From Perna viridis (taxonomy: Eukaryota), in assembly GCA_037379345.1 (NCBI GenBank), contig CM074511.1, positions 30,014,862 to 30,078,861 on the forward strand: 64,000 nucleotides of DNA, in the 5' to 3' direction. The position numbers are program-made. Below, in pieces: positions 22,501-28,500 of this stretch (positions within the stretch are counted from its first letter, which is position 1; each line of letters opens with the position of its first letter).

Positions 22501-25500
22501 AAAAAAAAAAAAAAAAAAACAACAGTGGAAACGAACAGACAGAGGTATTTGTTATTTAAGTGTAAGTTTTTGTACGAACCAGAAACACGCATGTCTGAAA
22601 CTCACCAACTCACCAACCTGACAATACAATTATTCAAGGATGCTTTTGCTATTGAAAAATACTTTTATTTGACCTCTGCATCATTGGATTTGCTTAACAA
22701 AATCTTTCAACAAAATGTAAGAAAATGATATTTTTGGCAGAGGTATATGCCCCTAAAATATTCATTTTTATTTCTTTCCAATGAAATTACAACTCAATTT
22801 ACCAAAATGATATGGAAACATTATCTTTTTTCCTTGGTTCCGATGGTGCCAATTGTCAGCTCAAACTTTCAAAATGTGCCTTTTTTATACCTTTCTCTCC
22901 CTCTGTCTAATTCTTATATAGACTGATAACTACTTTACATTATTCAGTGTTAAAAAAGGGAGTTAGAAGCATACATGAGGACAAACCAATTCGGTAAAAG
23001 TTTTTTTTTTCTTTTTTTGCTTTTGTTTTATTCTCTCAAAGGAAGTTAATCTAGAACTCCGTTATCTATTTATAACTCTGCCTAATACTAATCAATTCGA
23101 CGAAACAATCATTAAACAATGCGTTAATTGTACAAGTATCTATTTGGTTTACATGAAATTGACTAGATTTACATTTTATTTTTTTTTCATTTCATAATTA
23201 CAAAATGATTTGTCAAGGCCTTTATTGTACAGGTATGCGTTTGATGCTCGTGGAATTGAGAAGTTTTATATGTTTTCCATGATAAATTCCAGATAAGGTG
23301 GATGCAGCTAATAACAGGTCTATAGACGATTTTATGAAAGAACTACATGGTATGTTGTATTTATTTTCTTCTCTTACATTCTAACAATCGTTGACTGTAA
23401 ATATTTCAAAAGAAGTATGATCTTTTTCTTTCCTACATGTTCAATAATGATACATATTCAGAGAAGGTCTCTTCTTGAATGTTCCAAGAAGTTGTCATTG
23501 AAATTTACTATGCATGTTTTGAATTCTAACACAGCCTCTGTCCTCGTACAATAAATTTATTGTCTAAATATAGTAGATAATATTTGTGTTATCATTCCTT
23601 TTACAAAACGTTTTTTGTATAATAACATTGAAATAATAACGAAAAACATTTACTCATATCAATGAATTACTATATTTTTGGAAATTGCATGCAGACGCTT
23701 TTAGTTCATTAAATGTTTAATTCTATCATGTCAGTTTATAAAGAGAAAAACTGATATGGTTAAAGGTTACAAATGGACTTTCAACGTATAATCTAAATAC
23801 TAAATAGTAAATACTTACAAATCTCCAGTAAATGTAAAAAACACCTTTGATAAGCTCTTAGGTAAGGGTCCCGTTAACAAAATGTAATATCCACGGTAAT
23901 TGAATGATGACAATTCTTCATAAGCAAACGAGAAAAAAAATATAACGACACAGGGTCAAATTAATGACCAACATCACCTGACTGTCAAAAGGCACCTAAC
24001 ATGAATAAGTTCATTCAAAAATATACCAAATTCTTACATGGGGTACTTTAACATCCAACATATAGACAAAATAAAATGTCCACTTAAAGAACGCTCGCAG
24101 TAACTGAATGCATGCTAAAACACATTAAAGACTGACCACACCATGAAAACTATTACATTAGAAATAATCGGTCACTGCGTACAATTCAAATCGACTGGAT
24201 TTGGACTAGTAACGTTAAATACCAAATTAACAAGAACTTTCATCTGTGGCAACATCCCTTCAGCACCTGTGTATGGAGTGTTCATATCACAACTTATACG
24301 TTATGCCAGAGCTTGCCGAAACTACGCAGACTTTTTGTATCGCACTAGAACTCTAACAAATAGGCTTCTGGAACAGGGTTTTGTTGCTACAAGATTGAAG
24401 TCATCACTACAGAAGTTCTATGGTCGTCATCATGAACTCGTGAATCGTTATGGTGTATCCATCTGCACCATGAAAACTGATTTATTCAACGGGTCATAGT
24501 TTTCCGTTCCTCGTTTGTCTACCCTGGACTTGACTTTTATGAGCAACTCGGCGGGTGTTTCTAGAAAAGCAGAGGACGCTTACCCTACCTCTGCACCTGG
24601 TCCATGCTCCCAGTTTTTAGTGGAGTTGCTCATTTGCTTTTGTTACTTTGTATGTATGATTTTAGTTACTGTATGTTCTTTGTTGTGTATGTCTGTTTTC
24701 CATGTCGGGTCTTTGTCCCTGGATTATATTCCTTTGATTACCGCTATAACCTTTGTTCCCTTGACTACTCTTTGAAGTAGTGCAATACTAGACAAAAATA
24801 TGAGTTTTGTTCATGTAGGTTTGCAAAATGGGTGTAAATCTCTATTTGTGAAATCACGATTCAAAGAATAGACAATAAATTGATAATCGTATTCTTTATT
24901 AATAAATATATTAAGGACCGTCGATAAAATGATAGGGTTTTGTTTGAAAGAATGTGCTTTATAGACTTTCTTCTGTGGAAAACAATTTTTAATTAAGAAA
25001 CTGCAAGTGTTATTAGATTTTTATATCAAAGTATTGCAACGATGAAAACAGTTAGGAATTCTTGGTAACGATTTGAATGCTTAATTTATAATTCATTCTT
25101 AACTATAATAATCTCGAAGATCATATAAACAAGCAAATTGTGGGTTTCATATTGAAATCTTACTGTATTAATTTATATAGATAATCACCCACATTTATAA
25201 AGACGATATAAATTTCAGGGTCATGTCTAGGGGTTAACCCTGAAACACAGCCAGATGAATTATTGAAATATTCAACGATCATTTTTAATCGTAAGTTGTT
25301 TTTATATTTGTAATGGATGTAACATATACATGTAGCTCCACACAAATAAATGATTGATAGCCTCTTATACTGACTTTCATGCATGTAATAATAAAAACGT
25401 TGCTTTAGTTCTGGAATATAAAATTAATTTCAACGCTGGACATTGTCCCTAACCTTCCTCTATTAATAGATTTATGGTCCGTTTCATGCATTTATGACTT

Positions 25501-28500
25501 TATTCGTTTATTATTTGCATACATTGTATTACCGTTTATGCGTCTGCGCTGTGTTTGTTGTTTTTATCGACCAATATTTCCCTTTCTCTTTCTCTTCTTT
25601 TTATTTTATTCTATACCATCAAAATCTTCTTTCTGTAAAGAAAAAAAACATATTTTATATTTAATTTACGTAGACAAAACAATTGTGATGTATTTAAGTT
25701 TATAACAACTTGTTGGTTACATGGTTTATATAAAACTAAAGTCTAATCAGTACATTTGCAGACTATAGCAAAACAGACAGGAGAGAATCTAACCACCCTA
25801 ACTTAACCTTTAGCACAATTCATTGACAAACGACTGAGACACGATATTGAAACTGTCATTATAATTTGGAAGTGTTAAATGATAAGGATGCTGTGGTTTA
25901 TAATACGATAACAGACTGGACAATGATTAATGTTTGCTAAAGTAATTAACAAACATCATTATGCAACGCATAGATGAAAACAAAATTTAAAAATATTAAT
26001 CTACAAATTATTGAATTTCGTCATATATGTTGAATTGCCAACAAATTCATCAAGGGTCGAATCCACTCTCAACAAATAATAAAATACTAACTTGCATAGC
26101 CTGCATGATAAATATATTAATTCAGAGTTTAATCATTTGTAATGAAATAACTTGTTTTATGTAACCAATTTATACTTATTTCAAAGTTCGTTATAAAGGA
26201 ACTCAAGCGATTTTGTACTCTTCATTTTCTTTCAGGAATAAGAATTTACAAAGAAGCATTGGACATGAAGAGAAAAATTGTGAAAGAAGTGCAAGAAGTT
26301 TTTGACGGTAGGAATGAGTGTTCAGTACTTGATAGAAAATGTTGCTATTACCACATGACGGGTAAATCTTGTGAATGCATAATTTCACAGCTTGGTCTTT
26401 GAATACAGGCATTAAAGTTTCGCGGTCATTATTTATCGCGTCTATAGAAAGAGTTTTCATTCCCCTCCAGAGATCCCCAATTCTCCCGAAACAAGCGAAA
26501 ATTCTCGCTATACGATAATACAAACAATGGTAATATCTTCAGGTTAAAATTTTATTATTGATTTTTAACAGAGCTTTGTGAAACCTTAATTCTAGAGGAT
26601 CTTGAGCCACCTATTTTTTATATGGCTTTAATTATTAAAAACTCGACATACCATTGTATTTTTAAACTATATAAATTACCTAGAAGATCTACTCAAGTGG
26701 AACGTTAGTAAATTTTAAATTACATAAATTGTTTTCACTATATTTTGTTATTAATTTTATTGACAGTAACATGGGATGCCACAGAATTCGAACAGGTCTA
26801 CAATGTAATGATTAGAGATTCTAAAGGTTGTTCATATTACATTTTTTTATCTTTCACAGTACACCGTTAATCTAAAAAATAAAACGTTGTAATTTCGAAA
26901 AGTTGTATTCAATTACGAAGAAAAAACAAAGAAAACACGATAAAGAGAAAAAAGGAAACCAAAATGTTCGGTCTAGGGGCCGTCATCTTAGGTGAATCGC
27001 ATTTCACGAGAGGAGAAACAGAACTGTAGACCCAGAAGAAACTCAAATGATAATGGGAGTGGATAAGATTCTTAATGTTGTGCATTTAAGTATGCATGTA
27101 TATAATTGGCTACCATGACAACAACAACAATGACAACATGGTATGATTTTGAATAGGTCGCTACATGTTCATCTTAAAATAAATACTATATTAAACTACT
27201 GCCATTAGCTTGTTTTCGCACGAGATGTATTTTCATGAACAACAAAACAATTCGGAAAAAAAGAATAGCGGCAACAAAATCTCTTTATAACACATAGTTT
27301 GGTCAAAATATTAAATAGCCGCGAAATTGGATAGACATCCCAAATCGCACAAATAAAAATAAATAAATCGGAATACATTATTCTTCTTAAAATAATTCAG
27401 GTGTGTTCGTTTATAACAATGAAAGCACATTTTGATATTTATACAATCGTAATATGTTCATAGTAAGTATGAATTAAATTTCTAGTATTTTTCTATACTA
27501 TTGACCAAATCAGTTTTATTTGCCCTATTGAAGAAGTCTGCCAGGTTCATGACTGTAGTGACATACAACCAAGGACTACAGGTCCACATAAAATACACGC
27601 AAAAGGACCGACGTCCTTTCTAGTCACGTGTAATATGGATGTAGACGGAGGTAACTGGACGGTAAGATTCTTTTTAGGAAACAATATCGATAGCAAAAAC
27701 TATTTAATATGAATATTAAGATATTTTTTTTTATTTAATTTCATTTAATATATCACATATGTCCCATTCCAGTTAAAACTTGAAAACCTTTCATTTCGTT
27801 CGAAAAATAGATGCATTTATGAAACCATATATACAAGTTGTATTATCAGCATATATTCGATTTTGTTGTATTGTTTTACAGTCAAAACAACCAACTAACG
27901 TTTAAACAAAATTATTTCAAAATTACTTTTTTCACTTACTTTTCTAAGAATGCAAAAACACTATAAATGTTGAAAACTCAAAAAGATGAAATGTAAAACG
28001 AAATAATCTGCGACGTATTTGTGAATAGACACAAATTTAATTATATAGCTATTTTCCAGGATTCCATCATATGTATTTTTTACTCAGTTCATATATTTTA
28101 GATCTTGTTTTTCTGTGCGCTTCGAAGGTGGCACAGCAATTGCTCATCGAATAAATTCTTTTACATTTCGCTCTTTTTAGGTTATTCAACAACGACAGGA
28201 TGGATCTGTAGATTTTAAGAGGACATGGCAAGAGTACAAAGACGGTTTTGGAAATCCAGAAGGGGAACTGTGGCTAGGTAATAACTATCCTTTACAAGCT
28301 TTTAACGACAAAAATATTTATTACAAAATAAAACTGTCGATTTTATTTAACATACTATTGAGTGAAAGGACACGGCCACAGCACATATTTCAGCAAGGCC
28401 TATGTAAATAATTTCCTGGCACACTGGTATCCCTCTAGTAATAAGATATTATGTGCCCTCTCTGTACATACAATATCTGTACTACAGAGTAGGAAAAATA

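What the first reader, a model, noticed from the sequence alone, without database searches (positions are those of the whole stretch)
23293..27545. Unrecognised about 90-aa N-terminal domain defines this FReD subfamily
Seen: between the signal peptide and FBG, all copies have a region with no Gly-X-Y collagen (ficolins) and no Ig pattern (gastropod FREPs). Conserved features: an N-glycosylation sequon at one position in all five copies with exon 2 (NRS A2, NKT C2, NST D, NRT B1 and B2); DxFMxEL; a Cys in G[SA]CLG/ETCIG; an amphipathic YKEALDxKRKIxxEVQExFD; TWDSxExxQ; and a second Cys 68 residues later (EVC/DMC) just before the FBG DCS motif. Inference: a compact disulfide-clamped helical bundle or oligomerisation neck, possibly an undescribed domain architecture among bivalve immune lectins.
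Basis: partly seen in the sequence, partly recalled or inferred. Interest (0 to 1): 0.65.

Follow-up and report, generated by a model that had tools for sequence, protein, structure and literature searches.

The report
Helical neck module of mussel-type fibrinogen lectins
The flagged stretch encodes, in four tiny exons, a conserved all-helical neck of about 87 residues with two cysteines, placed before the sugar-binding head of secreted fibrinogen-type immune lectins; it is real and uncatalogued, but it has relatives in public mussel proteins and fits a known bivalve lectin layout.

Summary
Window 23293-27545 carries exons 2-5 and the start of exon 6 of an intact nine-exon FReD gene (A2, 21933-34509). 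It lies in a tandem cluster of six copies: A2 and C2 are intact, A1, B1 and B2 are decayed, and D runs off the window.

The four N exons (57/60, 72, 72, 60 nt) are all phase 1-1 and under purifying selection (dN/dS 0.24). Exon by exon they match no Pfam family.

The module is not unique to this cluster. A Mytilus galloprovincialis 'ficolin, partial' and 20 public protein clusters carry the same layout before an FBG domain. This includes the Cys-to-Cys spacing of 67-70 residues (68 here). A profile built only from those proteins ranks the window's exon 4 copies 1, 2, 3, 4 and 6 of 4157 six-frame pieces.

No member's module reaches a Pfam cut-off or matches a PDB sequence. AlphaFold2 on one member predicts helix, Cys, loop, kinked long helix, loop, helix, Cys. 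Foldseek finds no PDB match.

The disulfide and oligomer roles stay untested. Verdict: a divergent variant of a known bivalve layout; modest interest.

The parts
21933..22029 (+). A2 exon 1: start codon, signal peptide, 97 nt, donor AAG|gtaagt
   Evidence: C2 has a matching 97-nt exon 1 at 44236-44332
23293..23349 (+). A2 exon 2 (57 nt, phase 1-1): sequon NRS and DDFMKELHG; corresponds to helix 1 of the module
   Evidence: rank 8 of 4157 pieces against the database-family profile
25219..25290 (+). A2 exon 3 (72 nt, phase 1-1): Cys1, Pro/Gly loop, first half of helix 2
   Evidence: rank 14 of 4157 at collinear profile positions 14-39
26236..26307 (+). A2 exon 4 (72 nt, phase 1-1): amphipathic helix IYKEALD..., second half of helix 2
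   Evidence: rank 2 of 4157; 0 reversed decoys score as high
26767..26826 (+). A2 exon 5 (60 nt, phase 1-1): TWDATEFEQ..., corresponds to helix 3
   Evidence: not detected by the family profile (rank 2138)
27534..27661 (+). A2 exon 6 (128 nt): Cys2 (EVC), then the DCS start of FBG
   Evidence: Fibrinogen_C 12.6 bits, below the cut-off on its own
28181..28277 (+). A2 exon 7, FBG
   Evidence: Fibrinogen_C 45 bits; boundaries
30127..30291 (+). A2 exon 8, FBG
   Evidence: Fibrinogen_C 48.8 bits; boundaries
34268..34509 (+). A2 exon 9, FBG with DRDND and the stop codon
   Evidence: Fibrinogen_C 69.2 bits; boundaries
44236..51445 (+). Copy C2, intact nine-exon paralogue (e1 44236-44332, e2 45580-45639, e3 46081-46152, e4 46549-46620, e5 46796-46855, e6 47385-47512, e7 47746-47842, e8 49241-49405, e9 51207-51445)
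57951..63018 (+). Copy D, N exons only (e2 57951-58007, e3 from 59412, e4 62285-62356, e5 62959-63018); the rest lies beyond the window; e3 has no in-phase GT donor
114..5629 (+). Copy A1, cut by the window start (e4 about 114-185, e5 about 488-544, e6 734-856, e7, part of e8, e9 5390-5629); in-frame stops at 740 and 5570
12260..16241 (+). Copy B1, decayed (e2-like piece 12260-12352 with NRT, e3-like 13149-13271, FBG fragments 14882-16241 with stops at 14922 and 16182)
37654..41382 (+). Copy B2, decayed (e2 about 37654-37713 with NRT, e4 39430-39498, e5 39946-40002, e6 fragment 40240-40308, e8, e9 to 41382; stops at 40733, 41155, 41323; no e3 or e7 found)

Best explanation
The stretch encodes the neck of a secreted fibrinogen-related lectin. 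Four symmetric phase-1 mini-exons each supply one helical element of an all-alpha module of about 87 residues. The order is helix 1 (exon 2, with an N-glycan site at its start), Cys1 and a Pro/Gly loop, a long kinked helix 2 (exons 3 and 4), a short loop, helix 3 (exon 5), and Cys2 five residues before the first FBG cysteine (exon 6).

The module is a divergent member of a family that stands before the FBG domain in Mytilus-type proteins.

Most likely it folds into a small helical bundle that holds the FBG head on a stalk. Its two extra cysteines would tie chains together by disulfides, so that several sugar-binding heads act together with higher avidity.

Shown: the gene models, the selective constraint, kinship with the database family, the absence of any catalogued domain, and the helical prediction on a homologue.

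Inferred: the mapping of helices onto the window's exons, the disulfides, and multimer formation.
For: Gene models: A2 and C2 are intact nine-exon genes with identical exon lengths and canonical splice sites. FBG exons e7, e8 and e9 each pass the Fibrinogen_C cut-off on their own.

Constraint: dN/dS is 0.24 for A2 versus C2 and 0.14 for A2 versus D over the N exons.

Kinship with a database family:
- P0042, a Mytilus galloprovincialis 'ficolin, partial', came from the C2 exon 9 search (2 of 9 candidates scored). It shows DDLMHSLQG-x-C, Tyr at Cys1+26 and Cys2 at Cys1+68, as in A2 and C2.
- An exhaustive phmmer search with its residues 1-131 found 20 cluster representatives at E <= 0.001, 12 of them at <= 1e-10.
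- A profile built only from these proteins was run against 4157 six-frame pieces of the window. It ranks e4 of all 5 copies 1, 2, 3, 4 and 6, with 0 reversed decoys as high. It ranks e2 at 5, 8, 11, 21 and 582, and A2 e3 at 14. All hits sit at collinear profile positions.
- Cys1-Cys2 spacing is 67-70 in 7 of 10 module copies measured (68 four times, 67 twice, 70 once). It is 48-50 in the other 3, which lack exactly the 20 residues of exon 5.

Always before FBG: 13 of the 18 hits scanned carry PF00147. The other 5 stop at or before the module's end.

Fold: AlphaFold2 on P0055 residues 20-127 gives helices 2-31, 39-76 and 80-105, with pLDDT 79.7 and pTM 0.56. In the full-length model the helices are 35-50, 58-70, 72-95 and 99-117. 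Helices 1 and 3 end exactly at the two Cys, and the kink falls at the exon 3/4 boundary (my alignment).

Exon 4 is amphipathic, p <= 0.004 in 3 of 3 copies tested.

Analogy: shrimp PmFREP has N-terminal amphipathic helices and cysteines outside the sugar-binding domain. The full-length protein forms disulfide-linked oligomers, while the sugar-binding domain alone runs as a monomer (PMC7858579, passages read).
Against: Exon-level matches to the family profile are individually weak: 7-11 bits, E 0.05-1. Exon 5 (0 of 5 copies), exon 3 of C2 and D, and exon 2 of B2 are not detected.

The family's invariant Trp (IKW) is not kept in the window's exon 4.

The fold comes from a homologue, not from the window's own protein, and rests on alignments of only 17 and 40 sequences. 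pTM is only 0.56 for the module alone.

If helix 2 is straight, the two Cys would lie far apart in one chain. That speaks against a clamp but proves nothing about pairing between chains.

No experiment or model here shows a disulfide or a multimer. Two Cys per chain could equally pair within one chain.
Confidence: 0.55

Rival explanations
1. The module is a monomeric helical bundle. The two Cys pair within one chain as a clamp, and the bundle serves as a rigid spacer or as a docking surface for a partner such as a protease or a haemocyte receptor, not for self-assembly.
For: There is an even number (two) of extra Cys, both strictly kept wherever the region is covered. Both sit at the C-terminal ends of helices 1 and 3, which point the same way in an up-down-up bundle. 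A kink in helix 2 could bring them together. A crude heptad test finds no long coiled-coil register in 6 of 6 members.
Against: With a straight helix 2 the two Cys would be about 19 residues of helix apart (my estimate). Module copies lacking the 20 residues of exon 5 still keep both Cys (spacing 48-50), which is hard to fit to one fixed intrachain geometry. No coordinates were available to measure the distance.
Confidence: 0.25
2. It is a plain parallel coiled-coil neck, as in angiopoietin-like proteins or other bivalve FReDs, and needs no name of its own.
For: The region is helical and exon 4 is strongly amphipathic. The literature describes coiled-coil regions of variable length before mollusc FBG domains (PMC8878817; PMC11741071).
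Against: Conserved Pro/Gly loops break the helix at fixed places: CLGVNPETQP in the window, and ENP and ESKG in the family. AlphaFold2 gives three to four helices, not one. The best 28-residue a/d contrast does not exceed shuffles in 6 of 6 members (fraction of shuffles as high: 0.14-0.49), while 2 of 2 coiled-coil controls do (0.005 and 0.000). The test is crude, since an FBG negative control gave 0.04. hhalign against the repeat-type helical neck of other Mytilus FReDs gives probability 0.15%.
Confidence: 0.1
3. It is not a domain at all: a loosely constrained linker or a propeptide removed after secretion.
For: No catalogued family matches it. Exons 3 and 5 have diverged beyond exon-level detection.
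Against: dN/dS is 0.14-0.28. Length, Cys positions and Tyr are fixed across 20 clusters and this window. Helices are predicted with pLDDT up to 94.
Confidence: 0.05

Closest known systems
Public proteins with the same module: 'ficolin, partial [Mytilus galloprovincialis]' (P0042) and cluster representatives P0044-P0063
   Same: Same order of elements before FBG. Helix 1 ends in [DE]x[ILF]Mxx[LI]xGxC. Tyr sits at Cys1+26, and Cys2 at +67 to +70 (68 here). The module units coincide with the window's exons. The family profile picks out the window's e4 and e2.
   Different: The window's copies lack the family's invariant Trp. They carry an N-glycan sequon at the start of helix 1 that I did not see at that place in the family. 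Cys2 is 5 rather than 6-11 residues before the FBG DC (my count). Exons 3 and 5 are too diverged to detect one by one. The FBG is only 53% identical to P0042 in exon 9.
Mollusc FReDs described as signal peptide + coiled-coil region + FBG (PMC8878817; CfFREP of Chlamys farreri, PMC11741071)
   Same: The same overall layout, and the same proposed role of the helical part in oligomerisation (passages read).
   Different: Those regions are described only as coiled coils of variable length. Here the module has a fixed length, fixed loops and two fixed Cys, and no heptad signal in a crude test. No sequence comparison with CfFREP was made.
PmFREP of Penaeus monodon (PMC7858579)
   Same: An FBG lectin without collagen, with N-terminal amphipathic helices and cysteines outside the sugar-binding domain. 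The full-length protein is a disulfide-linked oligomer (passages read).
   Different: It has three extra Cys rather than two, and is an arthropod protein. Kinship of the helical parts was not tested here.
Vertebrate ficolins
   Same: An FBG head on an N-terminal assembly region with cysteines.
   Different: The neck of ficolins is a Gly-X-Y collagen triple helix. The window's N exons have no Gly-X-Y run and no collagen match.
Gastropod FREPs (IgSF + FBG)
   Same: A C-terminal FBG in an expanded immune gene family.
   Different: There is no Ig match in any N exon or in any family member. According to PMC8878817, true FREPs are limited to heterobranch gastropods.
Fibrinogen chains and angiopoietins (coiled coil bounded by cysteines; recalled, not tested)
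   Same: A helical region with cysteines at both ends, followed by FBG.
   Different: The N-only profile finds no fibrinogen or angiopoietin chain in PDB sequences. Foldseek hits of the full model cover only the FBG part, 203-234 of 321 columns.

Membership tests
Fibrinogen_C / FReD proteins (PF00147) | Match to PF00147 above the gathering score | tested here: met
   A2 exons e7, e8 and e9 score 45, 48.8 and 69.2 bits against a cut-off of 22, each on its own; e6 scores 12.6 bits
Fibrinogen_C / FReD proteins (PF00147) | Paired cysteines of the A and P subdomains and the DxDxD calcium loop (features recalled) | tested here: met
   Read directly: HDCS...TCNMD, NCSKL...RDC and DRDND in A2; the same in C2
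Mussel-type N-module FReDs (P0042, P0044-P0063) | Helix 1 motif [DE]x[ILF]Mxx[LI]xGxC ending in Cys1 | tested here: met
   DDFMKELHGSC in A2, DAFMKELHGAC in C2, DDFMRELRETC in D, against DDLMHSLQGIC and similar in the family
Mussel-type N-module FReDs (P0042, P0044-P0063) | Cys2 67-70 residues after Cys1, just before the FBG DC | tested here: met
   68 in A2 and C2 (count). The family gives 68 four times, 67 twice and 70 once, and 48-50 in 3 copies lacking the exon 5 unit
Mussel-type N-module FReDs (P0042, P0044-P0063) | Invariant Tyr at the start of the second half of helix 2 | tested here: met
   Y is invariant in A4 and A5 and in 5 of 5 window e4 copies; it sits at Cys1+26 in A2, C2 and P0042
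Mussel-type N-module FReDs (P0042, P0044-P0063) | Invariant Trp (IKW) in helix 2 | tested here: not met
   W72 is invariant in A5. No window e4 copy has a Trp
Mussel-type N-module FReDs (P0042, P0044-P0063) | Significant profile match | tested here: inconclusive
   Exon by exon only. e4 ranks 1-4 and 6, and e2 ranks 5-21 in 4 of 5 copies, out of 4157 pieces, at collinear positions. But each scores 3.7-10.8 bits, E 0.05-11, and e5 is not found.
Ficolins | Collagen-like Gly-X-Y region before FBG | tested here: not met
   No Gly-X-Y run in e1-e5 of A2 or C2; no collagen family
Gastropod FREPs | One or two IgSF domains before FBG | tested here: not met
   No Ig family in the N exons or in 19 family members
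Coiled-coil-necked FReDs (angiopoietin-like, other bivalve FReDs) | Continuous heptad coiled coil before FBG | tested here: inconclusive
   A crude a/d test is not above shuffles in 6 of 6 members, while 2 of 2 positive controls pass, but an FBG control gave 0.04. AlphaFold2 shows helices broken by conserved loops. No standard coiled-coil predictor was available
Repeat-type helical neck of other Mytilus FReDs (P0017-P0019, P0027) | Profile similarity to the 22-24 residue repeat region | tested here: not met
   hhalign A5 against A6: probability 0.15%, E 0.39. Exon HMMs against these proteins give a best E of 0.11
Disulfide-linked oligomeric lectins (PmFREP-like) | Interchain disulfides through cysteines outside the sugar-binding domain | not testable with these tools
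   This needs non-reducing gels or disulfide mapping. Model coordinates are not returned by the tools

The most novel reading that the evidence does not exclude
The module is an uncatalogued protein domain, possibly restricted to one lineage, built as one exon per helix with all boundaries in phase 1. Dropping exon 5 (Cys spacing 48-50 instead of 68) or exons 3 and 4 gives in-frame necks of different length. Mussels could use this, by gene variants or alternative splicing, to tune the reach and assembly state of their hugely expanded FBG lectins.
Probability: 0.3. Interest if true: 0.5.

Novelty: new variant of a known kind. Interest (0 to 1): 0.3.

Why it matters
Bivalves carry hundreds of FReD lectin genes, and how the heads are assembled decides their avidity. 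A defined helical neck of fixed length with two cysteines, absent from Pfam and from solved structures by sequence, would give annotators a domain to name. It would give experimenters a clear target: Cys mutants, neck deletions and exon-skipped forms. For this window alone it adds a divergent glycosylated branch and a worked example of birth and decay in a tandem lectin cluster. It does not add a new kind of system.

Tried and rejected
- Word-index searches. A2 exon 9 against longer proteins gave 40 of 46 candidates at E <= 0.001, with best identities about 48-56%. None of the 40 matches the exon HMMs (best E 0.11). The exon 6 alignment gave 1 candidate and none scored.
- N exons are under 25 residues and cannot be sent to that tool, which needs at least 40. 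I did not pad them.
- Exon HMMs built from the window do not reach significance against P0042 (E 0.63-2). tblastn of P0042's N part against the window finds only chance hits.
- PDB sequence searches. The profile from A4 matched only through its FBG columns. The N part of P0055 alone gave 0 hits at E <= 10. The N-only profile A5 gave one chance hit, SepF, at E 0.9.
- Foldseek of the module model against PDB gave 0 matches at E <= 10. The viral library was not tried.
- The ESM Atlas gave no usable hit.
- Sub-threshold Pfam hits inside the module were taken as chance on helical sequence: Intron_maturas2 in 5 of 18 members, at 15-18.2 bits against a cut-off of 20.8. COLFI in 3 members (19.7-23.3 bits against 26.2) overlaps the FBG start.
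- Kinship with the repeat-type neck of other Mytilus FReDs was rejected.
- Complex prediction with two copies of the module returned no verdict. It is not used as evidence either way.
Paper supplements were not opened.

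
Full report
What is there. The window has no N and is AT-rich, about 31% G+C. Its + strand carries a tandem cluster of fibrinogen-related (FReD) genes. Searching exon by exon with the peptides of the flagged copy, and with small exon HMMs over all 4157 stop-to-stop pieces of the six-frame translation, gives six copies:
- A1 (114-5629) is cut by the window start.
- B1 lies at 12260-16241.
- A2 (21933-34509) is the flagged copy.
- B2 lies at 37654-41382.
- C2 lies at 44236-51445.
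- D starts at 57951 and runs off the window.

A2 and C2 are intact nine-exon genes with AG/GT at every junction. Their exon lengths are the same: 97, 57/60, 72, 72, 60, 128, 97, 165 and 242/239 nt. A1, B1 and B2 carry in-frame stops and lack exons. D's exon 3 has no in-phase GT donor.

The observation.
- The N-x-[ST] sequon is at the same position in 5 of 5 exon 2 copies.
- D.FM.EL is present in 3 of 5 copies; the two exceptions are decayed copies.
- Cys1 is in all clear exon 3 copies.
- The YK[EK]A helix is in 5 of 5 exon 4 copies. It is significantly amphipathic in A2, C2 and D, p <= 0.004.
- TWD is replaced by PLD in D.
- Cys2 lies 68 residues after Cys1 in A2 and C2.

All four N exons are symmetric phase 1-1 units. 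Their nonsynonymous divergence is far below the synonymous one: pN 0.29 against pS 0.65, dN/dS 0.24 for A2 versus C2. The ratio is 0.14 for A2 versus D and 0.28 for A2 versus A1. The region is therefore a constrained coding module, not a linker.

Known domains. The window's own region of about 87 residues was therefore not sent as one piece to Pfam, PDB or a fold predictor. This limits power. Singly, the four N exons of A2 match nothing in Pfam; the best is DUF3113 at E 0.13, under its cut-off. Exons 7-9 are each Fibrinogen_C.

Relatives elsewhere.
- Exon 9 of A2 finds only FReDs of about 48-56% identity, none with the N module.
- The exon 6 alignment finds nothing.
- Exon 9 of C2 finds P0042, 'ficolin, partial [Mytilus galloprovincialis]', at 53% identity.
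- The N part of P0042 has the same plan: DDLMHSLQG-I-C, Tyr at Cys1+26, Cys2 at Cys1+68, then the FBG DC.
- An exhaustive phmmer search with P0042 residues 1-131 over 1.84 billion representatives gives 20 proteins at E <= 0.001, 12 of them at <= 1e-10.
- Of the 18 hits scanned, 13 carry PF00147. The other 5 end at or before the end of the module, and one of them has ankyrin repeats in front, probably a fused gene model.

I therefore saw the module only in front of FBG or in truncated records. The taxa of these 20 proteins are unknown to me.

Is the window's module the same family? A profile built only from the database proteins (87 positions) was run over the 4157 pieces of the window.
- Exon 4 of all five copies ranks 1, 2, 3, 4 and 6, at 7.4-10.8 bits. 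No reversed decoy reaches those scores.
- Exon 2 ranks 5 (B1), 8 (A2), 11 (D), 21 (C2) and 582 (B2).
- Exon 3 of A2 ranks 14.
- Every hit lies at the collinear place in the profile.

Against this reading: each single E-value is weak (0.05-11), exon 5 and the other exon 3 copies are not detected, and the family's invariant Trp is missing in the window.

In favour: the Cys-Cys spacing is 67-70 in 7 database module copies and 68 here. Three database copies with spacing 48-50 lack exactly the 20 residues that exon 5 encodes. P0046 lacks the stretch that exons 3 and 4 encode. The family therefore seems to share the window's exon plan. I take the window's genes as a divergent branch of this family, at about 85% confidence.

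Is the family catalogued? No Pfam family reaches its cut-off inside the module in P0042 or in the 18 hits scanned. PDB sequences give nothing for the P0055 module. An N-only profile gives only a chance SepF hit at E 0.9. hhalign shows no relation to the repeat-type helical neck of other Mytilus FReDs.

Structure prediction.
- AlphaFold2 on P0055 residues 20-127, with a 17-row alignment, predicts helices 2-31, 39-76 and 80-105. The pLDDT is 79.7 and pTM 0.56.
- Foldseek finds no PDB match at E <= 10.
- The full-length model (40 rows, pLDDT 81.1, pTM 0.73) gives helices 35-50, 58-70, 72-95 and 99-117.
- Its Foldseek hits cover only the FBG part, 203-234 of 321 columns.

By my alignment, helix 1 corresponds to exon 2 and ends at Cys1. 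The kink at residue 71 falls on the exon 3/4 boundary, and the helix 2/3 loop on the exon 4/5 boundary. Helix 3 corresponds to exon 5 and ends at Cys2. That is one exon per helical element.

A crude heptad test finds no long coiled-coil register in 6 of 6 members. Two coiled-coil controls pass, but an FBG control gave 0.04, so the test is weak.

How it most likely works. The protein is secreted (signal-peptide exon 1) and has a normal FBG head. The neck is a small helical bundle with a glycan at the start of helix 1 and one Cys at the end of each of helices 1 and 3. I think it most likely holds and multimerises the heads through interchain disulfides. Shrimp PmFREP, which has helices and extra Cys outside its sugar-binding domain, does this (PMC7858579, passages). 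Reviews propose the same role for the coiled-coil regions of mollusc FReDs (PMC8878817, passages; PMC11741071, passages). An intrachain clamp is the main rival. Neither could be tested, because the tools return no coordinates.

Novelty. The sequences exist in public databases, and the overall layout is in print. I did not find a description of this fixed-length, two-Cys module or of its exon-per-helix build. My four full-text searches returned nothing on it. The two original Mytilus FREP papers (Dev Comp Immunol 2011; Fish Shellfish Immunol 2011) were seen only as references and were not read. Supplements were closed. I rate it a new variant of a known kind, of modest interest.

Noticed in passing
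window 740, 5570, 14922, 16182, 40733, 41155, 41323: Seven in-frame stops occur in the decayed copies A1, B1 and B2. Five of the seven replace a conserved Trp codon (TGG to TGA or TAG). The same Trp, GIEW in exon 9, is hit in all three copies: TGA in A1, TAG in B1 and B2. B1 and B2 may have inherited theirs before a segmental duplication of an A-B unit.
   Followed up: partly
window 59412-59490: Exon 3 of copy D has no GT donor that keeps phase 1. The nearest GT gives 77 nt, next to a run of T. D may be defective, or the run may be miscalled.
   Followed up: partly
window 24119-24499 (+) and 2721-3615 (-): Two ORF fragments with near-identical tails (...YGVFISQLIRYARACRNYADFLYR...KFYGRHHELV...) lie inside introns of A2 and A1. 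They look like remains of one repeated mobile element. They were not searched.
   Followed up: no
window 27531-27536: The acceptor of A2 exon 6 reads gaagaag, two AGs three bases apart. Either choice stays in frame and would add or drop the Glu before Val-Cys2.
   Followed up: no
window 34268-34509 and 5390-5629: Copies A1 and A2 have an unusual pocket stretch, NCSK.TGGEGGWWFRDCD. Asp stands where C2 and most FReDs seen here have His (CH.SNLNG). This may mean a changed ligand preference.
   Followed up: no
window 44865-45227: An ORF in intron 1 of C2 is made of tandem AYKDK-like units and is open on both strands. It is probably a minisatellite.
   Followed up: no
database proteins P0045, P0046, P0058, P0059: P0058 and both module copies in P0045 lack the exon 5 unit. 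P0046 lacks the unit of exons 3 and 4. P0059 joins a different Mytilus-type helical N region to this module. These may be exon-skipped isoforms, real gene variants or gene-model errors.
   Followed up: partly
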